Sequence record: OQ540978.1
Length of the DNA: 64,000 nt
Reading direction: 5' to 3' (one strand)
Source of the DNA: Escherichia phage pEC-N1203-2Af.1
Under the pieces are notes generated by a model. It was not told the DNA's origin. It did no database searches and was given only the letters and a program-made list of their open reading frames with translations. This document shows positions 18,598-45,607 of the stretch, piece by piece (the stretch's first letter is position 1; every line of letters begins with the position of its first letter). The position numbers and the translations under genes are program-made.

Positions 18598-19089
18598 TTA
18601 ATATTTACCTTCAGTGTAAAGATCAGCTTCTGCAACCCTTCTATTATGAAGACCCTGACTTCTCTGCTTTTCTCCCCTGACCGTTATTTTATCCCAACGA
18701 AGAAATTCGGAATATACATCCCCTTTCACTTCTCCATTGATAACCTTCCTTAACTTAGATGTGCTCAAAGCACCACTGCCAACATTGAAGTTGAAAGAAG
18801 TGAGTGCATCAAACTCATGAACTAGCAAAGGAATCTTTATGTTCTTCTGAGTAGCACGAACAGAGTCTTGTGTGTCTCTATCTAGCAGAGCTAGACAATC
18901 CTCTATAGAATACGTTAATCCTTGTCTAACCGGATAACCATTCATATCGCGCGTAGCCCCTACACATATCGTCCAGATACCTGCGGAATCTTTATAAGCC
19001 TTGGTTCTCATACCCTCATGCTTCATGATGAATTCCATTCCAGCTGGGCTTAAGTTTAATTGTACAGGCGGCAATGCGGCGTTATCCAT
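18598..19089 (-). CDS. Endolysin, GH24 (T4/lambda-type) lysozyme
   Basis: ORF 163 aa; EGMRTKAYKDSAGIWTICVGAT contains the catalytic Glu and the Y.D..G.WTIG.G motif of phage lysozymes. Confidence 0.8.
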   Translation of the reverse strand: MDNAALPPVQLNLSPAGMEFIMKHEGMRTKAYKDSAGIWTICVGATRDMNGYPVRQGLTYSIEDCLALLDRDTQDSVRATQKNIKIPLLVHEFDALTSFNFNVGSGALSTSKLRKVINGEVKGDVYSEFLRWDKITVRGEKQRSQGLHNRRVAEADLYTEGKY

Positions 19090-19117: not shown

Positions 19118-19336
19118 TTAAGGTAGTATCTTTCTCAGAGCGTTAGATTCAGCATCAGGACAAATAACAACTAGGTTATTTTGAATTGTTCTCTGCTTGC
19201 ATTGAGAGCTAAGCTTCTCTACTGGAGCAGGGACAGTTACTAATGGATGAACTGCGCTTACAGGAACTGCGGTTGACACCACAACGCCTGCACCTAAACA
19301 GATTAAACCATATGCAGCCTGTTTCATCATTTTCAT
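19118..19336 (-). CDS. Small signal-anchored protein, putative lysis accessory (spanin/holin-like)
   Basis: ORF 72 aa; hydrophobic N-terminus MKMMKQAAYGLICLGAGVVVSTA; directly upstream of endolysin. Confidence 0.35.
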   Translation of the reverse strand: MKMMKQAAYGLICLGAGVVVSTAVPVSAVHPLVTVPAPVEKLSSQCKQRTIQNNLVVICPDAESNALRKILP

Positions 19337-31064: not shown

Positions 31065-32606
31065 TTAGTAGCTCTGATTCCATCTGCTTACGTTTGCCTC
31101 ATACAAAGAAGCGCTTCCGTAGCTAACATCATGCTTAGAGCGACCACGATGTGTAACAGAGCACGCTGAATAACGCATTGCATCCATTAAGTCATCATGT
31201 TCTTTAATAATCTTACCAACCTTACGGTGATATCTAGCTTTCTCTTCGAATAGCTTAGCGTTAGCGGCTGTGTTAAAGACTTTAAAGCGTCCACTCATCA
31301 TTCTTTCTCGGATATCTGTGATTCCCGGTTCTACAAAGAAGTTCTTTTTACCATCCATTCCAATTTTGTTGTAGAAGGTCTCACTCTGTACGTTAACTCC
31401 TGCATTCTTATAGAATTGAGCAACAGATGAACCACTACCTTTCTCAGTATTGTCCGCATCATGCGGTAGGATGACAGGAATCCACTGACCACGACCATTA
31501 ATAGCTGGAGCATGATACACTGGAGTAAAGCCACCTTCTTTATATGAGTCGTAAACATAGATAGTATCCGTGTTTGCGTCGTAAGCTGTCCAAACAGCAG
31601 CAGTTGGGTGATCAATACCAATATCAATTGCACAGACACGTTTCCACGTATCAGGAATTTCGAATGGTTCACATTTAATTGTGTCATCCGATACATCATA
31701 AATCAAACCACTTCCTAACAATGGCATACCTTTTGAACGCATCTCTAATTGCCACGCTGGAATACCTTCAGTCATATCTTTTATATCTTGGTCAGTGATG
31801 TGTCCACCTAAGTCTGCATGAGCATCCCACCAAGAAGCATTCTGGAAATATAGAGAACCTGTGTTCTCATCTCCTTCACCTTTCATAAATTTATCTACCA
31901 GTTCAGTTAAACCGTTCTCTGGTGTAGCTGTAATTGTAACTAGACCTTTAGTTGTGAGTGTACGTGTGACGCACTGTGCGAATATAGCCATAGACTCGTA
32001 TGGATCTTCTTCGTCTAACCAAATGTAGTCAACTGTTGCACCCATCAATGTGTGTTCACCCTGTTGGGTTGAACGGAATTCTAATGTACTTAAACCGTCA
32101 AACTCTCCTCTCTCATTTTGATGTTTGATTTGTACGATTTGAAGTTTGTTACCATCTCGTTCTATCGTATCAATGACGATAGCATCACGAGGAATGACAC
32201 CTGTCCCTAATAAATTTGTATCCTTTCCGATAGGTGTACCAAACAGTTCCTTTTGCAATACCTTCCTTGTGGAATCCCCTGTAATACCAACTGCCCATGC
32301 TAAGATAGGTCTTTTAAATTTATATCCTGTCCACCAAGTTGGGTAGCGACCTGTGACATGACAAGCAAACTCGTATGCCTCGCTGTAAGATTTACCAACA
32401 CGGTTCGCTGCACACAAGAATCTAAAGCGATGCTTCAATCCTGCTGCATAAAATTTCTTTTGGAAGTCATACGCCTTGAAAGACAAAATCTTATTATACT
32501 TCCTCCATTGGTCACGCTCTTTCAACATATTCAATAGTGCTTTCTTTTCCTCTACACTAAGGTTGTTACCAGTTAGAGCTTCATAAATTTGTTTATCTAA
32601 TGACAT
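31065..32606 (-). CDS. Terminase large subunit
   Basis: ORF 513 aa; N-terminal ATPase (Walker A-like CAANRVGKS, Walker B-like DYIWLDEED) and C-terminal nuclease-like acidic residues (CAIDIGIDH...). Confidence 0.8.
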   Translation of the reverse strand: MSLDKQIYEALTGNNLSVEEKKALLNMLKERDQWRKYNKILSFKAYDFQKKFYAAGLKHRFRFLCAANRVGKSYSEAYEFACHVTGRYPTWWTGYKFKRPILAWAVGITGDSTRKVLQKELFGTPIGKDTNLLGTGVIPRDAIVIDTIERDGNKLQIVQIKHQNERGEFDGLSTLEFRSTQQGEHTLMGATVDYIWLDEEDPYESMAIFAQCVTRTLTTKGLVTITATPENGLTELVDKFMKGEGDENTGSLYFQNASWWDAHADLGGHITDQDIKDMTEGIPAWQLEMRSKGMPLLGSGLIYDVSDDTIKCEPFEIPDTWKRVCAIDIGIDHPTAAVWTAYDANTDTIYVYDSYKEGGFTPVYHAPAINGRGQWIPVILPHDADNTEKGSGSSVAQFYKNAGVNVQSETFYNKIGMDGKKNFFVEPGITDIRERMMSGRFKVFNTAANAKLFEEKARYHRKVGKIIKEHDDLMDAMRYSACSVTHRGRSKHDVSYGSASLYEANVSRWNQSY

Positions 32607-33940: not shown

Positions 33941-34175
33941 TATAACGATAGTCTTTATAAGTCTCAGCCTTGTAGGTTACAAAGCATCTCATGTACAACC
34001 AGCCCAATGAACTCAGGTCTATTGTAACATCAAAATCTTCATCATCGTCTAGGTCTACTAATCTACCCAAACAAGTTATTACTTCAGTGCCCCCAACTTC
34101 TTCAACTTTAAATGCACATTTTTCAGTGCGGAAGTAAGGAATCAACTCTGATAAAAAGTCTAATACTAAATTCAT
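33903..34175 (-). CDS. Hypothetical protein
   Basis: ORF 33903-34211; preferred start ATG 34175 (MNLVLDFL) with GAGGAG RBS. Confidence 0.4.
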   Translation of the reverse strand: MNLVLDFLSELIPYFRTEKCAFKVEEVGGTEVITCLGRLVDLDDDEDFDVTIDLSSLGWLYMRCFVTYKAETYKDYRYSDNTDTEGENDE

Positions 34176-34198
34176 AATTCTTCTCCTCTGAATAAGAT

Positions 34199-34309
34199 TC
34201 AATCTACCCATTCACCGTTGCCACCTTTTTGGTAGAACCATGCATTGCGGGATACTGAGTACACTATGTCCTTATAAATTAAGGAGTGTAGTTCTTTTAA
34301 AAACTTCAT
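34199..34309 (-). CDS. Small hypothetical protein (36 aa)
   Basis: Untracked ORF MKFLKELHSLIYKD... with an RBS nearly identical to that of 33903-34175 (TTATTCAGAGGA). Confidence 0.25.
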   Translation of the reverse strand: MKFLKELHSLIYKDIVYSVSRNAWFYQKGGNGEWVD

Positions 34310-34332
34310 ATTCTATCCTCTGAATAAAAGTA

Positions 34333-34454
34333 TAAAGGGCTAGGCATATCCAACCCGTAAAGGCCACATCATACTAACAACCCGTGTACGCTGAAGTAAA
34401 GGGCATGTCATAAAGGGGACTTCATAAAGGCCATGTCACGTTAAGGCCTGTCCA
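34333..34454. repeat. Iteron-like array: six copies of 14-bp unit TAAAGGSSAYKTCA, four in tandem
   Basis: Units at 34333, 34358, 34397, 34411, 34425 and 34441; the middle three are contiguous head-to-tail, the last follows a 2-nt insertion. Confidence 0.6.
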
Positions 34455-34740
34455 CCCACGTACTGAATCTCAACTTACCACATTCCTTACACTTCCATGT
34501 TGATAGGTAGAGACCATGTATTCTTTCATCCCCGTAAGCTTTACGAAGAAGGTAGTAATTGTGCTTACACTTCATCCGTCTAAATACTTTAATTAGATCC
34601 ATTAAGTTCTCTCTTAAGCTTATATACATCTGTTTAAAATTCTGATTTGACCGAGTGGGGCTAGGCACTCCGCGGCGAATTGTTAAAAAGGGGGAGTCCT
34701 CATTTAAAAAATGGTTATTGGCAATGCCTTTACACCTTCT

Positions 34741-34820
34741 TCCGTGTTCCAACCTTTCCCCGTGCCTACTCCCCGTTATTCTTTCCCCGTGTATACTACC
34801 CAATACATTTACTACCCGTT
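34741..34820. repeat. Short repeat array YCCCCGTK (about 14-bp spacing)
   Basis: CCCCGT copies at 34758, 34771, 34785 and 34815. Confidence 0.5.
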
Positions 34821-35142
34821 TATTTAGTACCCCTTTAAAGAGTAGGAGAAAGGCTAGTCACTGATAATGATTAGATTAAGGCACTATGAATAGGCTAATA
34901 ATACCCCACAGTTACTACCCACTTCCCCCATAGTTTGATTGTAAATAGTTTCAATGGTAATGATTATGAGTGTAATAATGATGTATGTATTAATTAAGTG
35001 GAAGATAGTAATTAACAGTTATTATTTCTTTTTATTCTTTTCTTTTTCAGCGTGCGTGAGTACGCAGTACGAACGGTTTTTGATGTTTGAGTTATACAAT
35101 TATTTAAGTGGTATATTATTACCGCACTATCTGGCCATGCTT

Positions 35143-35206
35143 CCCCGTGGTCTGTTCTGCGGTTGTGTGTTCCCCGTCCTATATAGTAGAAATAGTTTAC
35201 CCGTGG
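35143..35206. repeat. Second YCCCCGTG repeat cluster (about 28-bp spacing)
   Basis: CCCCGTG at 35143, CCCCGTC at 35172, CCCGTG at 35200. Confidence 0.45.
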
Positions 35207-35273
35207 TTGCTTGTCTTCCTTGTTAAGTAGTAGTAAATTGAAGCCTATTGATTGAGTGATTGGAGTGATAAAA

Positions 35274-35447
35274 ATGATGATTCTAGTAATGATGGCAATG
35301 GCTATAGTGTTTCCTTTACTTGTTCTGATCGTTTGTGAAGTAGTTGAGCCGTTCGCTGATAGCAAGTTAAGCCCGAAAGATAAGCCTAGTAAGTTTAATG
35401 GCGCTACTTTTAGCAGAAAGAAAGTTAGAAAGATGGTTGCAATGTAA
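35274..35447 (+). CDS. Small hydrophobic membrane protein
   Basis: Within tracked ORF 35256-35447; ATG 35274 preceded by GGAG; one predicted TM segment. Confidence 0.3.
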   Translation: MMILVMMAMAIVFPLLVLIVCEVVEPFADSKLSPKDKPSKFNGATFSRKKVRKMVAM

Positions 35448-35502
35448 GAAAGCGTGTCCTATTATATCCCTACCGTCCTGATTTTCTGAATAGCAAGGAT
35501 TT

Positions 35503-35667
35503 ATGATGGGTATTAAATTCCGTGTTATGGTTGACCTTGAAGGATTCGGCGCTCCTGATGAGTTAGCTGGTATCTTCTTATCTATGGATACCGCTATATT
35601 GTGCGCTGATTCCATTCGTGAAATTGAAGGCTTGAACACCTATATTATTGAATCTATCGAGGATTAA
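35503..35667 (+). CDS. Small hypothetical protein (54 aa)
   Basis: Untracked ORF MMGIKFRVMVDLEGFGAPDEL... with AAGGA RBS. Confidence 0.3.
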   Translation: MMGIKFRVMVDLEGFGAPDELAGIFLSMDTAILCADSIREIEGLNTYIIESIED

Positions 35668-35670
35668 ATC

Positions 35671-36162
35671 ATGGCTAAAATAATGCAAGTAGTAAATCTG
35701 GCAAGTTATGCACTAGTCGCCGCGATCGGTGTTAGTGCGCTGGTATCTTCCTTTCCTGATAAGGCTGTTGCTAGTCCTGCTCCTGCAACTGATGCGGCTA
35801 GTGTCTTCGTTAGTTCCATCAATAAAGGTTGGATGATTTGCAACGGTGCTGATAGTGACACCAATCAGATCGTTTTAAAGGTTAAATTCAGTAACGTTTC
35901 CCGTGATGGTCTGGTCGTTAGTACCAAAACACTGGACAATCAGCCTAACAGTGATCTAGTTCTCAAGCGTACTGATAACGATGCGGATATGGTGACTTAT
36001 GGCACTGTACAACGTTACAGCCATGCGAAAGCTGTCACGAATCTGGTCAGTTATGGCCCGGTTAAGGAGTCGATGATCGCCACCACGGTTTACAATAACG
36101 CTGATAACGCTGTTTATACCGTTCACGTTAATCTAGCCAACTGTATTAAGGCTAGTAAGTAA
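35671..36162 (+). CDS. Secreted/periplasmic protein (signal peptide), unknown function
   Basis: ORF 163 aa; N-terminal hydrophobic signal with AxA-like cleavage region; codon usage visibly more GC-rich than phage core genes. Confidence 0.5.
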   Translation: MAKIMQVVNLASYALVAAIGVSALVSSFPDKAVASPAPATDAASVFVSSINKGWMICNGADSDTNQIVLKVKFSNVSRDGLVVSTKTLDNQPNSDLVLKRTDNDADMVTYGTVQRYSHAKAVTNLVSYGPVKESMIATTVYNNADNAVYTVHVNLANCIKASK

Positions 36163-36188
36163 ATAACTTATTTTTGGGAGTGTAAAAA

Positions 36189-36455
36189 ATGACTATCAAA
36201 GAAATTAGATTATCTAATGGCTTTTCTTGTTTTGTTGGCGATCAATCTATCATGTTTAACACGCTTGATGGTCAGCTTACAGTGCCTATTATCACTTTTT
36301 GCAAAATGGACTTTCAACCGGCTAGAAACTGGTTAGCATTTGCTGGCCTTGAAATCACCCGCGATGATTTTCGTTCAATTTATTTTGACGGTGGCTTATC
36401 ACTGGCGAATCTGCTCAATCATGGACTAATTGAGGGTGATACCAATGGGGAATGA
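36189..36455 (+). CDS. Hypothetical protein
   Basis: ORF 88 aa. Confidence 0.4.
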   Translation: MTIKEIRLSNGFSCFVGDQSIMFNTLDGQLTVPIITFCKMDFQPARNWLAFAGLEITRDDFRSIYFDGGLSLANLLNHGLIEGDTNGE

Positions 36456-36583
36456 TTGTTTCTGGCGTTGCTTATTCGTTGTTACAGTGGCGTTATTCGT
36501 CGCTGATATGCTTTATTCTTACATCCTTTGAGGTCCGGTTGTGTTGTTTCTGTTTTTGTTTGCCATTGGCTTCCTTTCTTTAA
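36452..36583 (+). CDS. Small hydrophobic protein (43 aa)
   Basis: Untracked ORF with ATGA overlap with upstream gene; Cys/Phe/Leu-rich. Confidence 0.25.
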   Translation: MIVSGVAYSLLQWRYSSLICFILTSFEVRLCCFCFCLPLASFL

Positions 36584-36643
36584 ACTATTTATTGATTGTT
36601 GCCGCTTTCGATATTCTTAAACTAATTAAAGAGGTTTATTGCT

Positions 36644-37009
36644 ATGTGGTTTATTAAATTCATCGTTAAGATGGTTGTAGGCTTTTTTCTGGTTGTTCTT
36701 CTGTTAGGTGTCCTGCTATCGGCTATGGGTAGCGTTAAGGCTGCAACGTTTTCCCCTGATACGGTTGACGGTTTACAGTGTACCTATCTCGTAGAAAACT
36801 ATGAAACTGGTAAAAAGTCACCTAAAGTTATTATTTTGCATGTAAATGATTTTGATCATGTGCAATCAGATAGTAAAACTATTCTACTGGTAAACGAAAC
36901 TACCGGTAAACAAATCACGGTCAATCACTTGATGCGCTCATCGTTGACGCTCTTTGATGAGTCCATGAATGAAATTGAGTCCGGTAATGGTCAATGTGTA
37001 AATCCATAG
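36644..37009 (+). CDS. Signal-anchored / secreted protein, unknown function
   Basis: ORF 121 aa; N-terminal TM/signal MWFIKFIVKMVVGFFLVVLLLGVLLSAMG. Confidence 0.45.
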   Translation: MWFIKFIVKMVVGFFLVVLLLGVLLSAMGSVKAATFSPDTVDGLQCTYLVENYETGKKSPKVIILHVNDFDHVQSDSKTILLVNETTGKQITVNHLMRSSLTLFDESMNEIESGNGQCVNP

Positions 37010-37085
37010 GCTTAATCTTTCTCCTTTATTGTGCCGTAGTCATGCCTATGGTCATAATCTATCTGATGTTTTAAAGCCTCCTGAA

Positions 37086-37112
37086 AGCCTCGCCATGAGG
37101 CTTTTTTCTTTT
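37086..37112 (+). terminator. Rho-independent terminator
   Basis: AGCCUC-GCCAU-GAGGCU followed by UUUUUUCUUUUC. Confidence 0.6.
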
Positions 37113-37268
37113 CTAAGGTGATTGTATACCTTACTCCCTTTTAGCTCGCTGTAGCGCGTTTTAGGCCGCCTATTGTTGCTTTACAAGCCGTTTTCTATGA
37201 TGTATCACGTGCGCCCGCTCTTTTACCTTCCTATAGTGAAAAAGTTTAAAATAATTTGCTTTGCCCTA

Positions 37269-37296
37269 TTGCACTTCCTGAAAGCTCACGTATACT
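37269..37296 (+). promoter_or_regulatory. Candidate sigma70 promoter (TTGCAC-N16-TATACT)
   Basis: -35/-10 hexamers with 16-bp spacer in the ORF-free region. Confidence 0.35.
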
Positions 37297-37332
37297 GATT
37301 TTCATCGGGTACGATGTAAAACATACGCCGCG

Positions 37333-37411
37333 CGCTCTTTAAAAATCAGGCTAGAAAGTGAAAAATACTTGAAAAAGTATTTGACAACTGGAAAGCCTAA
37401 CCTATAATGAG
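37333..37411 (+). repeat. 79-bp direct repeat, copy 1 (promoter module)
   Basis: Identical to 37552-37630; contains CGCTCTTTAA motif, AAATACTT/AAGTATTT inverted repeat, TTGACA and TATAAT. Confidence 0.8.
37381..37408 (+). promoter_or_regulatory. Strong sigma70-type early promoter (TTGACA-N16-TATAAT) with A/T-rich upstream element
   Basis: Consensus -35 at 37381-37386 and consensus -10 at 37403-37408. Confidence 0.6.
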
Positions 37412-37551
37412 CTTAGAAAGACAAGATGACCGCTCAAGTAACTCCCTAGTGAGTGAAGCAAGTCAGACGCAGGCAGGCGGATACCATTCCCCGGAATAAT
37501 CGCAGGTTATCTGATTATCAAATGGTGTTATGGGAGCCATACAGCTTTAAA

Positions 37552-37630
37552 CGCTCTTTAAAAATCAGGCTAGAAAGTGAAAAATACTTGAAAAAGTATT
37601 TGACAACTGGAAAGCCTAACCTATAATGAG
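37552..37630 (+). repeat. 79-bp direct repeat, copy 2 (promoter module)
   Basis: Identical to 37333-37411. Confidence 0.8.
37600..37627 (+). promoter_or_regulatory. Strong sigma70-type early promoter (TTGACA-N16-TATAAT)
   Basis: Consensus -35 at 37600-37605 and -10 at 37622-37627. Confidence 0.6.
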
Positions 37631-37904
37631 CACAAGTCAGCGATGACGTGAAACATCCCCGCTCTTTAAAAATTTATCATCTTGCCCTTTCGCATAGATT
37701 CACGCGAGATAAGGGAAAAGAATAAAAGAAGATGATAAAAAGAGTTTGACAAGCTAACACGACGTGTTAAGCTGTAAATGTAGTAACCGCTCTTTAACAA
37801 TATGGATCATAAGTTTAAGCCTCATCGCTTGATCTTCAATCAAACAAAGCTGATTGATATATCCTCCCAATAGCGGGAACGATGAAAAAAGATTAAAAAA
37901 GCGG

Positions 37905-37933
37905 TTGACAGCGAAAACATCATGGTCCATAAT
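37905..37933 (+). promoter_or_regulatory. Sigma70-type early promoter (TTGACA-N17-CATAAT) with upstream A-tract
   Basis: -35 at 37905-37910, -10 at 37928-37933, preceded by AAAAAAGATTAAAAAAG. Confidence 0.55.
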
Positions 37934-38735
37934 GAGCGTACTCACTAGGCAAATCACCGCTTAAGTGAAAAGCGAAACAACGGCTTACAGTTGCGTAGCG
38001 TGAGAAAGCACGCTGACAGATTTACCGCTCTTTAATAATTTAAACATTCTCATATATCGGTTGAATATGCTGGAAGATAATAACCATCGGAAAGCATACC
38101 AGATAAAACGGCGTAAGGCTCCCTAAAACATCAGGGTAAACAGTTTTACAATCCCTTAACTGGAAACGTCACCACTGATAAGCGGATTCATTGAGTACAC
38201 GCAACGGTTTAAGCTAATCGCCCACGGTTAAGGGTAGCGGCGGCCATCGCTAACACGGTGCTACAGTGAAAGAAACTAATCAGGGCAGACAAGTCCGACG
38301 AATTAACGCCCAATTGAGGGCGGCGGGGGATGGTTAAAGGGTAGCAAATTGCTATTTAACAATAAGGTTTAGTGTGAACGTTTACGATGCGAACGGCTTG
38401 AGATTCGTCTTATGATGAAAGTACATAGTCGGTTTATGTAGTAAACTTGCCGAAAGATATAAAACGCCGGAATGTTAGGCGGTTAGTGACTTTTTCGCAA
38501 TAGTATCCCATAGTGGGCGATGACTAGCGAAAGAGAGCTGATACAAAAGGATAGGCGGGAGCGAAAGCAAAGTAAACGATATTGCCGATGGTTACAGCAA
38601 TGTAATTAAATTGAATCGGACGCACTGCCTTATTGTGATGATTGATCATCGCTATCAGGTCGGCTTCGTTTATAGCGACTAATTAAAGATACCAGATGAA
38701 ACATCACGGATAAGGGAGCGGCAAGGTTAACTCCT

Positions 38736-38789
38736 GATAAGACCGCTCCGCTTATCAATATTTACTTAACATTGAGTGGATATTGATAA
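38736..38789. promoter_or_regulatory. Nested inverted repeats (GATAAG...CTTATC and CTTATCAATAT...ATATTGATAAG), operator-like
   Basis: 11-bp perfect inverted repeat separated by 18 bp plus an overlapping 6-bp inverted repeat, about 60 bp upstream of gene 38851. Confidence 0.4.
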
Positions 38790-38850
38790 GTCAATAATGG
38801 CTTAAAAGGCTCATAGCGAGCGGGGGCAATAGTGCCCTTACAATTGAAAG

Positions 38851-39759
38851 GTGAATATCATGGCTAAAATTTTCAATCTGGTAAAAGAATCCGGTTTTAA
38901 CGCACTGGCAAACAATATCCGCAGTAATAACGCAGCGATTAAGCAAGATGTTTCTAATTTTCTGTTAGGGCACTTGCAGCACTTCCGCAGCAACGGCAAG
39001 AAGTTAGATGTATTGCAGTCGGCGGTTGATTTTCTGTTAACCGAACGTTTCCGCGATATGGACGTGATCGCCACTGCAATTACTTTCTTAACTCCCATCA
39101 AGTTCAACACCGATGCGGCAAACGGTCGTAAAAAGTGGATTAATCTGGAAGGTGAGGCGAAAGCGAAAGAAGATGCGAAAGAAGCGCAAATTAAGGCCAA
39201 AATGGAACAAAACCGCGCTCGCTGGTCAAATGCTTTCGAAAACTTTGCTTTAGGCCGTGAAATTGAAGTTGATAATCCTAACTTTTACAAAGGTTGCAAT
39301 GACAACGTGGCGGCCCACCTTCAAATCCCGGCGAAAAATAAGGAAGATTTTAACCAAGATATTTACGCTTTGGTTGAACGCTTGAATGCAATCCGTATTG
39401 AAGTCAAATTGTTGGCTGATGAGCGCAATGGCGCTACCAGTGACAACACTATTGCCTTAAGTGAAGACGTGGGGAAAGTTAAAAAGTCCTTTGATTCACT
39501 CATCAAGAAAGTAACGGCCTCAACGGTAGCGATCTCTGACGATTATCTGATGAACGCATCAAGCAAGGAATTAGAATCACTCGATTCATACGCTGATGAA
39601 ATGGAAAAAGTAGTCAGTGAGATGCAGGACAAGCTGAACAACCTGCGCCAACGTATCGAAACTGCCACCACTATTAAGGCCAATGAGAAAGCAGCGGCAG
39701 AAGAGGAAGAAGTATTGCGTAAAGCGGCTGAAATTATGGCGGCACGTCAGGCGGCATAA
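38851..39759 (+). CDS. First early gene, hypothetical protein (302 aa)
   Basis: ORF with GAAAGG RBS; Lys/Glu/Ala-rich helical composition; E. coli-like GC-rich codons. Confidence 0.5.
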   Translation: MNIMAKIFNLVKESGFNALANNIRSNNAAIKQDVSNFLLGHLQHFRSNGKKLDVLQSAVDFLLTERFRDMDVIATAITFLTPIKFNTDAANGRKKWINLEGEAKAKEDAKEAQIKAKMEQNRARWSNAFENFALGREIEVDNPNFYKGCNDNVAAHLQIPAKNKEDFNQDIYALVERLNAIRIEVKLLADERNGATSDNTIALSEDVGKVKKSFDSLIKKVTASTVAISDDYLMNASSKELESLDSYADEMEKVVSEMQDKLNNLRQRIETATTIKANEKAAAEEEEVLRKAAEIMAARQAA

Positions 39760-45532: not shown

Positions 45533-45607
45533 GTCCCTATAGTTAAAAGGATATAACAGATTTCTTCTAAAAATCCATTCTAGGTTCGAGTCCTAGTGGG
45601 GACGCCA
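45533..45607 (+). tRNA. tRNA-Arg (anticodon UCU), CCA encoded
   Basis: Manual cloverleaf: acceptor GUCCCUA/UGGGGAC, D-stem GUUA/UAAC, anticodon stem GAUUU/AAAUC with loop CUUCUAA, T-arm CUAGG-UUCGAGU-CCUAG, discriminator G, CCA. Confidence 0.8.

What the first reader, a model, noticed from the sequence alone, without database searches (positions are those of the whole stretch)
35671..37009. Cluster of GC-shifted, signal-peptide genes between the repeat arrays and the early promoters
The genes at 35671, 36189 and 36644 (and gene 38851 further on) visibly use more GC-rich, E. coli-like codons than the phage core, and two have signal peptides or anchors. They are separated from the rest of the plus-strand genes by the promoter region and end at their own terminator, which looks like a moron or accessory cassette of envelope-targeted proteins.
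Basis: partly seen in the sequence, partly recalled or inferred. Interest (0 to 1): 0.4.

Follow-up and report, generated by a model that had tools for sequence, protein, structure and literature searches.

The report
Early envelope-protein operon of a Kuravirus
The three genes are a conserved small early operon at one end of a phiEco32-like coliphage genome that sends at least two small proteins to the host cell envelope; it is not GC-shifted and shows no sign of bacterial origin, so it is an ordinary, uncharacterised part of this phage group.

Summary
The window is a phiEco32-like (Kuravirus, Gordonclarkvirinae) coliphage. The genes at 35671, 36189 and 36644 are real, under purifying selection, and correspond to phiEco32 genes 128, 127 and 125. 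They lie just inside the 193-bp terminal repeat and end at a conserved intrinsic terminator, upstream of the strong early promoters.

- **Composition:** the GC claim fails. The region is 40.3% GC against 42.5% for the window, and GC3 is not raised (p=0.19). Synonymous codon choice is modestly shifted towards average E. coli usage, and strongly so for the gene at 38851.
- **Export:** two proteins have export signals and two invariant cysteines each. One is predicted to be an 8-stranded beta-barrel. A conserved 28-aa membrane micro-ORF adds a third envelope product.
- **Origin:** no bacterial homologue exists, and the genes occur in 76-93 of about 97 related phage records. It is therefore not a moron.
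- **Function:** unknown. My best guess is early envelope remodelling or superinfection exclusion.

The more notable thing lies next door. The ORF-free leader of about 900 nt at 37940-38859 is a strongly covarying structured RNA present in all 97 relatives, with no Rfam family.

The parts
34663..34855 (.). Equivalent of the 193-bp direct terminal repeat of phiEco32. It marks the genome end next to which the cassette sits.
   Evidence: The first 193 nt and the last 193 nt of the phiEco32 record both map here. A 193-bp repeat is reported for phiEco32 and SU10, and repeats are annotated in PAS59 and 4E8.
35274..35447 (+). 57-aa single-pass membrane ORF (63 aa from the GTG at 35256). It lies upstream of and overlaps the cassette promoter. 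It occurs in only a few relatives, and its expression is uncertain.
   Evidence: Kyte-Doolittle 19-aa window 3.08. Matches phrog_7482 at E=2.5e-14. tblastn finds it in only 10 phage records.
35437..35465 (+). Candidate sigma70 promoter of the cassette: TTGCAA-17-TATTAT, 9 of 12 consensus positions, with an A-rich upstream tract at 35413-35436.
   Evidence: Scans. It is the positional homologue of the near-consensus TTGACA-N17-TATAGT promoter in phiEco32, SU10, 4E8, PAS59 and UKE3, sharing the upstream 'AGAAAGTTAGAAA..ATGGTTG'. Its consensus score alone is no better than background.
35503..35667 (+). 54-aa ORF with no relatives, carried on a roughly 200-bp insert that the closest relative NJ01 lacks.
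   Evidence: No tblastn match in 50,697 phage records. Not on record in the assembly collection. The insert is visible in the alignment.
35671..36162 (+). 163-aa exported protein, homologous to the C-terminal part of phiEco32 gp128. It has an N-terminal export helix or anchor, and residues 42-160 are predicted as an 8-stranded up-and-down beta-barrel with invariant Cys57 and Cys158.
36189..36455 (+). 88-aa protein without an export signal, homologous to phiEco32 gp127. It is widely mislabelled 'polymerase' or 'DNA polymerase B region'.
   Evidence: dN/dS 0.16-0.31 against Kuravirus relatives.
36445..36531 (+). Conserved 28-aa single-helix membrane micro-ORF (MGNDCFWRCLFVVTVALFVADMLYSYIL) with its own Shine-Dalgarno site.
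   Evidence: An ORF of 27-32 aa with the same hydrophobic pattern is open at the same position in all six phages compared. It is annotated only in UKE3, as gp112.
36541..36657 (+). Diverged tandem duplicate of the micro-ORF (38 aa, GTG start), present in the window and in NJ01 only.
   Evidence: Direct repeat D13 with 88-nt spacing. ORF comparison.
36644..37009 (+). 121-aa exported protein, homologous to phiEco32 gp125. It has a signal peptide (cleavage candidate VKA|A) and a beta-rich mature part with invariant Cys46 and Cys118. It is widely mislabelled 'terminase'.
   Evidence: The signal region diverges faster than the mature part between genera (dN 1.05 against 0.29). The structure model is poor (pLDDT 53).
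37083..37113 (+). Intrinsic terminator closing the cassette: a 9-10-bp stem, a short loop and the run UUUUUUCUUUUC.
   Evidence: -12.2 kcal/mol. The same element is listed as a terminator in SU10 and annotated in 4E8.
37381..37933 (+). Context: block of four sigma70 early promoters. These are 37381-37408 and 37600-37627 (both 12 of 12 consensus positions, inside an exact 80-nt duplication), 37746-37773 and 37905-37933.
38860..39759 (+). Context: phiEco32 gp124 homologue and first gene of the main early operon. This is the 'gene 38851' of the finding.
   Evidence: The PHROG alignment starts at residue 4 of the GTG-started ORF. It is present in all 97 related records at 80% identity or more. Its codon usage is the most E. 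coli-like in the window.

Best explanation
This is the terminal early operon of a phiEco32-like virulent podophage.

**What it is (confidence about 0.85).** It sits 0.6-2.3 kb inside the direct terminal repeat, on the same genome arm and strand as the early genes. It is read by host sigma70 RNA polymerase from its own promoter and closed by its own intrinsic terminator. It makes a small set of proteins, most of them directed to the cell envelope:
- a 163-aa protein whose C-terminal 120 residues form a small disulfide-closed 8-stranded beta-barrel in the periplasm;
- a 121-aa beta-rich periplasmic protein with one disulfide;
- a 28-aa membrane micro-protein;
- one 88-aa cytoplasmic protein.

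**What it does (inferred, about 0.35).** Within minutes of infection these proteins are exported through Sec, oxidised by DsbA, and bind envelope components. This would protect the infected cell from further phage attack or from envelope damage, in the manner of T4 Imm/Sp or T5 Llp. Possible mechanisms are superinfection exclusion, receptor or entry-channel masking, or inhibition of an incoming virion's cell-wall hydrolase.

**Origin.** It is an old, fast-evolving, lineage-specific part of the E. coli Gordonclarkvirinae genome with variable slots. It is not a recently captured bacterial moron.
For: **Identity and position**
- The window matches phiEco32-like phages. The genes correspond to phi32_128, 127 and 125.
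- The terminal repeat maps to 34663-34855. PAS59, UKE3 and 4E8 show the same layout: repeat, about 500 bp, barrel gene, small genes, 108-121-aa gene, terminator, early promoters.

**Transcription unit**
- A near-consensus sigma70 promoter lies in front of the barrel gene in relatives, with a diverged positional homologue in the window.
- The SU10 paper states that, as in phiEco32, one promoter lies upstream of this cluster with a terminator after it.
- phiEco32 early genes are transcribed from four sigma70 promoters (PMC8948821).
- No phage-sigma (gp36) promoter motif occurs upstream on this strand. The terminator is supported.

**Real, constrained genes**
- dN/dS is 0.10-0.31 where dS is below saturation.
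- The genes are found in 93, 86 and 76 of about 97 related records.

**Export**
- Signal features are present in both proteins.
- Each has exactly two invariant cysteines in the mature part.
- The barrel model has pLDDT of about 85, with hits to soluble 8-stranded barrels.
- In phiEco32-type phages the same hydrophobic helix is internal, preceded by a basic stretch and a 125-aa N-terminal domain, with no ribosome-binding site in between. It therefore works there as a membrane-inserting segment.
- A membrane micro-ORF is conserved in six of six phages.

**Fast evolution and mosaicism, as expected for host-interface genes**
- Against PAS59 the barrel protein is 42% identical and the 88-aa protein is undetectable, while the genome median is 76%.
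- The 88-aa gene is 61% identical to NJ01 while its neighbours are 94-95% identical.
Against: - The barrel fold is generic.
- Export was judged by heuristics, not by SignalP or experiment.
- The window's own promoter is weak by consensus (9 of 12), no better than background hits. Expression of this particular copy is therefore not shown.
- Early timing is taken from relatives. The primary phiEco32 papers could not be read.
- Which genome end enters the cell first is not known for these phages.
- Many other early genes of the window are equally divergent, so fast evolution is not specific to this cassette.
Confidence: 0.5

Rival explanations
1. One reading: a moron. On this view it is a recently acquired, compositionally foreign accessory cassette of bacterial or prophage origin, inserted between the repeats and the early promoters.
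For: - It has its own terminator and, in relatives, its own promoter.
- Synonymous codon usage is shifted about one third of the way towards average E. coli usage.
- Individual slots inside the unit are variable: the 54-aa ORF is unique, the 57-aa membrane ORF is in 10 records, and a gp126-like gene is present in phiEco32, 4E8 and PAS59 but absent here.
Against: - GC and GC3 are not raised.
- The core genes are near-universal in the phage group.
- No convincing homologue exists outside Kuravirus-size contigs in 1.84 billion or 5.8 billion proteins.
- There is no DNA match in 5,426 E. coli genomes.
- The phage is virulent, so there is no lysogen to benefit.
- The same codon shift is stronger in the core gene at 38851 and in capsid and other highly expressed genes. 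It therefore does not mark foreign origin.
Confidence: 0.07
2. Lysis-timing control. The exported proteins would act in the periplasm as antiholin-like or spanin-related regulators, as T4 RI does, with the weakly hydrophobic, unusually conserved N-terminal helix of the 163-aa protein serving as a signal-anchor-release domain.
For: - The N-terminal helix of the 163-aa family is 53% Gly/Ala/Ser/Thr.
- That helix is more conserved than the mature domain: 10 invariant residues in the helix (positions 9-22), and dN 0.33 against 0.62 between genera. This is the opposite of an ordinary cleaved signal peptide.
- T4 RI is also a small early periplasmic protein (general knowledge).
Against: - The lysis genes sit in the late module: a lysin at 18598-19089 and a small membrane protein at 19118-19336.
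- There is no sequence or fold similarity to RI, holins or spanins, and neither protein has a lipobox or a coiled coil.
- Both subfamilies keep plausible signal-peptidase sites.
Confidence: 0.1
3. Envelope-directed host takeover or counter-defence. The proteins would neutralise a host periplasmic or membrane factor, for example an envelope stress response, a membrane-acting abortive-infection effector, or a periplasmic nuclease or protease. They would not be excluding other phages.
For: - The evidence for early expression and export is the same as for the main explanation.
- Gordonclarkvirinae are reported to be unusually resistant to the defence systems tested (PMC11990801).
- The genes evolve fast.
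- Small barrels of this kind often act as binders or inhibitors.
Against: There is no similarity to any known anti-defence protein and no PADLOC-related hit. No target can be named. The present data cannot distinguish this from the main explanation.
Confidence: 0.2
4. The ORFs are chance reading frames in a non-coding terminal region whose real function is packaging or replication.
For: - The region lies next to the terminal repeat and to clustered CCCCGT repeats.
- Two ORFs of the unit, the 54-aa and 57-aa ones, have weak support.
Against: - dN/dS is well below 1, with saturated or high dS.
- Cysteines and hydrophobic patterns are conserved at 44% identity.
- Shine-Dalgarno sites are good.
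- The fold prediction for one protein is confident.
Confidence: 0.02

Closest known systems
phiEco32 genes 125-128 and SU10 CDS121-125: the terminal early transcription unit of Kuravirus phages
   Same: - The genes are orthologous: 71-91% amino-acid identity to phiEco32.
- The position next to the 193-bp terminal repeat is the same.
- The terminator is the same, and the promoter occupies the same position.
   Different: - The window lacks the gp126-like gene.
- It lacks the 125-aa N-terminal domain that phiEco32 gp128 carries.
- It has instead a 57-aa membrane ORF, a unique 54-aa ORF and a duplicated micro-ORF.
- Its promoter is degraded from TTGACA/TATAGT to TTGCAA/TATTAT.
T4 Imm and Sp (spackle) and T5 Llp: early phage proteins sent to the envelope for superinfection exclusion
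   Same: They are small proteins made early by virulent coliphages and exported to the membrane or periplasm. This likeness is functional analogy only, drawn from general knowledge.
   Different: - There is no sequence or fold similarity.
- Sp is helical and Llp is a lipoprotein with a lipobox encoded next to the receptor-binding protein gene.
- Here there is no lipobox, one protein is a beta-barrel, and the genes sit at the genome end.
- The function has not been tested.
Morons of lambdoid phages (for example bor and lom)
   Same: It is an autonomous promoter-to-terminator unit inserted among phage genes and encoding envelope proteins.
   Different: - The base composition is not atypical.
- It is near-universal in its phage group.
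- The phage is virulent.
- There are no bacterial homologues.
Lipocalin/calycin-like and designed 8-stranded beta-barrels, including the Cap15 barrel and the periplasmic MliC/PliC lysozyme inhibitors as a functional idea
   Different: - Sequence identity is 5-16%.
- There is no Pfam match.
- No lipocalin GxW motif is conserved across the family.
- MliC and PliC were not among the top hits.
- The resemblance is at fold level only.
T7 class I early region: leading-end sigma70 promoters followed by an early terminator
   Same: Host-polymerase promoters and a terminator sit at the genome end that carries the early genes, in a phage with short direct terminal repeats.
   Different: - Here the terminated mini-operon lies upstream of the main early promoters rather than being the main early operon.
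- Its products are envelope-directed rather than cytoplasmic takeover proteins.
- The order in which the DNA enters the cell is unknown.

Membership tests
Moron (autonomous accessory unit in a phage genome) | Own promoter and own terminator | tested here: met
   The terminator lies at 37083-37113. Relatives have a near-consensus promoter; the window has a diverged positional homologue at 35437-35465 whose activity is not shown.
Moron (autonomous accessory unit in a phage genome) | Base composition different from the neighbouring phage genes | tested here: not met
   Region GC is 0.403 against 0.425 for the window. Pooled GC3 is 0.379 against 0.358 expected (p=0.19). CAI is ordinary. There is only a modest shift in synonymous codon choice, and core genes share it.
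Moron (autonomous accessory unit in a phage genome) | Present in some but absent from other closely related genomes | tested here: not met
   The 163-aa, 121-aa and 88-aa genes are in 93, 86 and 76 of about 97 records that carry the group's terminase and gp124. Only sub-elements are sporadic.
Horizontally acquired bacterial gene | Detectable homologues in bacterial genomes | tested here: not met
   The profile search of 1.84 billion representatives returned five family members plus three weak partial hits to very long repetitive proteins. Hits among 5.8 billion clusters come from Kuravirus-size contigs or short fragments. There was no blastn match in 5,426 E. coli genomes.
Sec (type I) signal peptide proteins | Basic n-region, hydrophobic h-region of 7-20 residues, small residues at -3 and -1 | tested here: met
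   Cleavage candidates are AVA|S (or VQA|K in the other subfamily) and VKA|A, conserved in alignments. SignalP was not available, so cleavage as opposed to anchoring is not resolved for the 163-aa protein.
Bacterial lipoproteins (type II signal, as in T5 Llp or Cor) | Lipobox [LVI][ASTVI][GAS]C at the end of the signal | tested here: not met
   Neither protein has a cysteine within or just after the h-region. The first cysteines are at positions 57 and 46 of the precursors.
Periplasmic disulfide-bonded proteins | Even number of conserved cysteines in the exported part | tested here: met
   Cys57 is invariant and Cys158 is kept in 22 of 23 aligned sequences. Cys46 and Cys118 are invariant in all 16. 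Disulfide formation itself cannot be tested here.
Lipocalin / calycin superfamily | 8-stranded antiparallel up-and-down barrel | tested here: met
Lipocalin / calycin superfamily | Sequence signature (GxW in the first strand) or a Pfam lipocalin match | tested here: not met
   There is no Pfam hit. The 'KGW' of the window protein is not kept in the second subfamily. It is therefore lipocalin-like in fold only.
Terminase / DNA polymerase (names given in RefSeq and PHROGs) | Terminase or polymerase domains | tested here: not met
   There are no such Pfam or NCBIfam domains. The proteins are only 121 and 88 aa. The real large terminase is at 31065-32606. The names are propagated annotation errors.
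Superinfection-exclusion proteins (T4 Imm/Sp, T5 Llp type) | Expression in the host blocks infection by the same or other phages | not testable with these tools
   This needs plating and adsorption assays. Only location, inferred early timing and export are consistent with it.

The most novel reading that the evidence does not exclude
The 163-aa protein would found a new family of phage periplasmic effectors. A disulfide-closed mini beta-barrel would be held at, or released from, the inner membrane by an unusually conserved, weakly hydrophobic helix rich in small residues. Together with the 121-aa protein and the 28-aa membrane micro-protein, it would form an early envelope complex. That complex would either sense or block secondary infection, or inhibit an incoming virion's cell-wall hydrolase. 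This would be a mechanistically new superinfection-exclusion or lysis-inhibition module specific to O-antigen-dependent Gordonclarkvirinae.
Probability: 0.2. Interest if true: 0.55.

Novelty: new member of a known kind. Interest (0 to 1): 0.3.

Why it matters
- **Phage therapy relevance.** Gordonclarkvirinae are common, broad-host-range and defence-resistant coliphages used in phage-therapy work, yet their early genes have no known function. Knowing that the very first operon next to the genome end delivers proteins to the envelope gives a concrete, testable entry point. The experiments are export fusions, deletion, and exclusion assays.
- **Annotation.** It corrects the widespread 'terminase' and 'polymerase' labels.
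- **For the scan.** The main lesson is negative. The visual impression of a GC shift was wrong, and the unit is an ordinary conserved part of the lineage.
- **The neighbouring RNA.** The adjacent structured early RNA of about 900 nt may be the more valuable lead.

Tried and rejected
- **Phage-sigma promoter.** The gp36 motif TAATGTATA is absent upstream of the cassette on the plus strand.
- **Relatives' promoter.** The exact sequence is absent from the window. Consensus scoring of the window's candidates is no better than background.
- **Family and structure libraries.** Pfam, NCBIfam and PADLOC gave nothing above threshold, and PHROGs only unnamed or misnamed families. PDB sequence searches with both family profiles found nothing meaningful.
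- **Fold searches.** The AlphaFold database Foldseek library was not available. BFVD gave only family members and weak generic barrels.
- **121-aa structure.** The model was too poor to search with (pLDDT 53).
- **Rfam.** Nothing was found on 34000-39000.
- **Small ORFs.** The 54-aa ORF has no relatives. BLASTP shows no similarity between the 88-aa protein and phiEco32 gp126.
- **Literature.** The primary phiEco32 papers (PMC2587145, PMC3275717) are not held, so early expression of genes 125-128 could not be read directly. A literature search found no functional study of these genes and no report of a phiEco32 non-coding RNA in the held library.
- **Terminator folding.** The hairpin's energy is not unusual against shuffles (z=-1.15). 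The call rests on the motif and on its conservation.
Full report
**Identity of the window and of the genes.** A megablast of 35400-37200 hits 80 phage records, all Escherichia or Shigella phages of the phiEco32 type (Kuravirus, Gordonclarkvirinae). The closest are NJ01 and 172-1 at about 90% identity. The window's plus strand is the minus strand of the phiEco32 record. The ORFs at 35671-36162 (163 aa), 36189-36455 (88 aa) and 36644-37009 (121 aa) correspond to phi32_128 (C-terminal part), phi32_127 and phi32_125. The ORF at 38851-39759 corresponds to phi32_124.

The first and the last 193 nt of the phiEco32 record both map to window 34663-34855. That is the 193-bp direct terminal repeat reported for phiEco32 and SU10. 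The cluster therefore lies 0.6-2.3 kb inside one genome end.

PAS59, 4E8 and the Suseptimavirus UKE3 show the same order. It runs terminal repeat, about 500 bp, barrel gene, one or two small genes, a 108-121-aa gene, terminator, early promoter block, then the gp124 homologue.

**Check of the observation: composition.** I predicted 78 strand-consistent ORFs and compared the four named genes with the other 74.
- The region 35671-37009 has 40.3% GC, below the window mean of 42.5%. This is the 10th percentile of sliding windows of the same size.
- Gene GC is 0.445, 0.393 and 0.385, against a reference of 0.416 +/- 0.028.
- GC3 is 0.415, 0.337 and 0.377, against a reference of 0.366 +/- 0.054.
- CAI with the Sharp-Li E. 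coli weights is 0.35, 0.28 and 0.29, against a reference of 0.29 +/- 0.09.

I then redrew each gene's codons from the phage's own synonymous usage. Pooled GC3 is 0.379 against 0.358 expected (p=0.19). Only the 163-aa gene is slightly high on its own (0.414 against 0.335, p=0.013).

A log-likelihood ratio of E. coli K-12 against phage synonymous usage does show a real but modest shift. The three genes lie about 35% of the way towards E. coli usage. Single-gene z is 2.5-3.4 and pooled z is 5.0, and only 9.5% of control genes exceed z=2. The shift comes from extra GCG, ACG, GGC and CTG and fewer TCT, ACA and CTT.

The phage's typical T-ending codons are the translationally optimal ones of E. coli, so the shift is towards average rather than optimal host usage. 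The gp124 homologue is much more shifted: GC3 0.472 against 0.364, z=9.3, 72% of the way. The capsid gene and a few others also score high. This pattern therefore does not mark foreign DNA. Both E. coli tables were entered from memory, which is a caveat on the exact numbers.

**Check of the observation: signals, promoter, terminator.** Both named proteins have a basic n-region and a hydrophobic h-region with no acidic residue. Both have -3/-1 sites: AVA|S after residue 34 and VKA|A after residue 33. All three genes have good Shine-Dalgarno sites.

A hairpin with a U-run lies at 37083-37113. The same sequence is listed as a terminator in SU10 and annotated in 4E8. Downstream lie four sigma70 promoters, two of them perfect 12/12 matches inside an exact 80-nt duplication.

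Relatives carry a near-consensus promoter directly in front of the barrel gene. It reads TTGACA-N17-TATAGT, preceded by AGAAAGTTAGAAAATAAATGG. The SU10 paper says that, as in phiEco32, one promoter lies upstream of this cluster and a terminator downstream of it. phiEco32 early genes are said to be transcribed from four sigma70 promoters.

The window lacks an exact copy. It keeps the upstream tract, followed by TTGCAA-17-TATTAT at 35437-35465. This is a positional homologue, but by consensus score it is no better than background. No phage-sigma motif lies upstream on this strand.

**Are they real genes, and where else do they occur?**
- Pairwise dN/dS against phiEco32, NJ01 and 4E8 is 0.10-0.31 for all four genes.
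- Word-indexed searches of 5.8 billion proteins return only proteins from contigs of 75-79 kb or short fragments, named as Escherichia phage proteins where named.
- An exhaustive HMM search of 1.84 billion representative proteins with the 163-aa family profile finds five family members and three weak hits to very long repetitive proteins.
- There is no blastn match to the cassette or to the gp124 homologue in 5,426 complete E. coli genomes.
- In the phage collection the large terminase at 80% identity or more and the gp124 homologue each occur in 97 records. The 163-aa, 121-aa and 88-aa proteins occur in 93, 86 and 76 records, all Escherichia or Shigella phages.
- No hit appears in the Salmonella, Cronobacter or Aeromonas relatives, whose terminase is about 60% identical.

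The unit is thus near-core for the E. coli Gordonclarkvirinae and has no detectable bacterial source.

**Anatomy of the products: the 163-aa family.** It has two subfamilies about 44% identical. Cys57 is invariant and Cys158 nearly so. AlphaFold with the family alignment gives a confident domain (pLDDT about 85) from residue 42 to 160. It has one short helix and eight antiparallel strands.

Unusually, the N-terminal helix (NLASYALVAAIGVSA) is the most conserved part of the family. Between genera dN is 0.33 in the helix against 0.62 in the mature part, with saturated dS. The helix is 53% Gly/Ala/Ser/Thr.

In phiEco32-type phages the same helix is internal. It follows a 125-aa N-terminal domain and a basic stretch, with no ribosome-binding site in front of the internal Met. 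There it must act as a membrane anchor with the barrel outside. Whether the helix is cleaved or retained is open.

**Anatomy of the products: the others.**
- The 121-aa family behaves as a classical secreted protein. The signal diverges faster than the mature part (dN 1.05 against 0.29) and Cys46 and Cys118 are invariant. Its model is poor (pLDDT 53).
- The 88-aa protein has no export signal.
- Between the 88-aa and 121-aa genes all six phages compared keep a 27-32-aa hydrophobic ORF. In the window it is 36445-36531 (MGNDCFWRCLFVVTVALFVADMLYSYIL) with its own Shine-Dalgarno site. The window and NJ01 carry a diverged tandem duplicate at 36541-36657.
- Upstream, the window and a few relatives have a 57-aa membrane ORF that overlaps the promoter.
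- The window alone has a 54-aa ORF with no relatives.

The unit is mosaic. The window's 88-aa gene is 61% identical to NJ01 while its neighbours are 94-95% identical. The gp126-like gene of phiEco32, 4E8 and PAS59 is missing here. Against PAS59 the barrel protein is 42% identical, the 7th lowest of 60 shared genes. The 88-aa protein is undetectable and the 121-aa protein is 60% identical, against a genome median of 76%.

**Most likely mechanism.**
- Shown here: position at the genome end, terminator, promoter homology, coding constraint, export-type N-termini, paired cysteines, barrel fold, distribution.
- Inferred: transcription by host sigma70 polymerase early in infection, before the phage inhibitor of sigma70 acts. 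This rests on homology with phiEco32 and SU10.
- Inferred: export through Sec and oxidation in the periplasm.
- Inferred: action on envelope components.

I commit to early envelope remodelling that protects the infected cell. This would be superinfection exclusion, receptor or channel masking, or inhibition of an incoming cell-wall hydrolase, by analogy with T4 Imm/Sp and T5 Llp. I give the function about 0.35 probability and the structural description about 0.85.

The rivals are envelope-directed counter-defence (0.2), antiholin-like lysis timing (0.1), a captured moron (0.07) and non-coding DNA (0.02). No family library gave any functional hit.

**Comparison with known things and novelty.** The transcription unit itself is already described for phiEco32 and SU10, and the genes are annotated as hypothetical in more than 90 genomes.

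New at annotation level:
- the envelope destination of most of the products;
- the barrel fold;
- the conserved anchor-like helix and its fused form;
- the micro-ORF;
- recognition that the RefSeq and PHROG names 'terminase' (121 aa) and 'polymerase / DNA polymerase B region' (88 aa) are errors. There are no such domains, and the real terminase is at 31065-32606.

It fails two of three moron criteria and the bacterial-origin test. I rate it a new member of a known kind (early phage envelope proteins), of modest interest.

**Noticed next door.** The 920 nt between the last early promoter and the gp124 homologue (37940-38859) contain only short ORFs (34-42 aa, all on the minus strand) and nothing on the transcribed strand. 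This stretch folds far better than shuffles (-279.8 against -235.4 +/- 8.0 kcal/mol, z=-5.5). It is 89% conserved across six phages of two genera, more than most proteins.

It shows massive covariation: 278 pairs in 43 helices with 98% of cells paired. There are 61 pairs with compensatory double changes, against 19.0 +/- 3.3 in shuffles (0 of 500) and 3-6 in slid controls. It is present at full length in all 97 related records, mostly unannotated. It has no Rfam family, and I found no mention of it in the held literature. This large structured early RNA deserves its own follow-up.

Noticed in passing
window 37940-38859 (+): The leader of about 920 nt between the last early promoter and the gp124-like gene is a large structured RNA.
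- Folding z-score is -5.5 against shuffles.
- The consensus structure has 278 pairs in 43 helices, with 98% of cells paired.
- 61 pairs show compensatory double changes, against 19 +/- 3.3 in shuffles and 3-6 in slid controls.
- It is 89% conserved across two genera and is present at full length in all 97 related phage records.
- It has no Rfam family, and no report was found in the held literature.
- One invariant helix pairs the region around 38020 with the Shine-Dalgarno region of the downstream gene.
   Followed up: yes
window 37332, 37551, 37659, 37787, 38025 (+): The motif (C)CGCTCTTTAA(A/T)AAT occurs five times. The first four copies lie about 50-110 nt upstream of a -35 element. The fifth lies inside the structured leader. 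Its function is unknown; it could be a processing site, a binding site or part of an UP element.
   Followed up: no
window 37333-37412 and 37552-37631 (+): An exact 80-nt duplication carries a perfect TTGACA-16-TATAAT promoter with its A/T-rich upstream region.
   Followed up: no
window 36445-36531 and 36541-36657 (+); L001 2338-2442, L002 4354-4467, L004 1875-1970, L005 1772-1864, L006 1788-1892: A hydrophobic micro-ORF of 27-32 aa is conserved just upstream of the 121-aa gene in all six phages compared. It is annotated only in UKE3 (gp112). It is tandemly duplicated and diverged in the window and in NJ01.
   Followed up: partly
window 36644-37009 and 36189-36455; many RefSeq and GenBank records: The 121-aa exported protein is annotated 'terminase' and the 88-aa protein 'polymerase' or 'DNA polymerase B region' in dozens of records and in PHROGs. 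Neither has such a domain, so these are propagated annotation errors.
   Followed up: yes
L001 739-1611 (phiEco32 gp128) against window 35671-36162: In phiEco32-type phages the exported barrel protein is fused in frame to a 125-aa N-terminal domain, with no internal ribosome-binding site. That makes it a predicted type II membrane protein. In the window, NJ01, 4E8 and PAS59 the barrel protein stands alone.
   Followed up: partly
window 35695-35740 (residues 9-22 of the 163-aa protein): The N-terminal hydrophobic helix is the most conserved part of the family, with 10 invariant residues at 44% overall identity and saturated dS. This is the reverse of what cleaved signal peptides usually show. 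The helix is rich in small residues.
   Followed up: partly
window 35466-35675: A roughly 200-bp insert relative to NJ01 carries a 54-aa ORF. The ORF has no match in 50,697 phage records or in the assembly collection.
   Followed up: yes
window 45533-45607 (+) and 38860-39759 (+): The only tRNA in the window is tRNA-Arg(TCT), located in the early region. The gp124-like gene, first after the early promoters, uses 0 of 15 AGA codons, against 14-26% AGA in other gene classes. This fits translation before the phage tRNA accumulates.
   Followed up: partly
window 34530-35177 (+): Six of the window's 18 YCCCGT matches, all on the plus strand, cluster in and next to the terminal repeat. Similar CCCCGT(G) and TACCCGT repeats are visible in 4E8, PAS59 and phiEco32 at the same place. 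They may be packaging or replication signals.
   Followed up: no
window 36189-36455 against its neighbours: There is gene-scale mosaicism inside the cassette. The 88-aa gene is 86% identical to Ptacy1479 (85% to SU10) but only 61% identical to NJ01, while the flanking genes are 94-95% identical to NJ01.
   Followed up: partly
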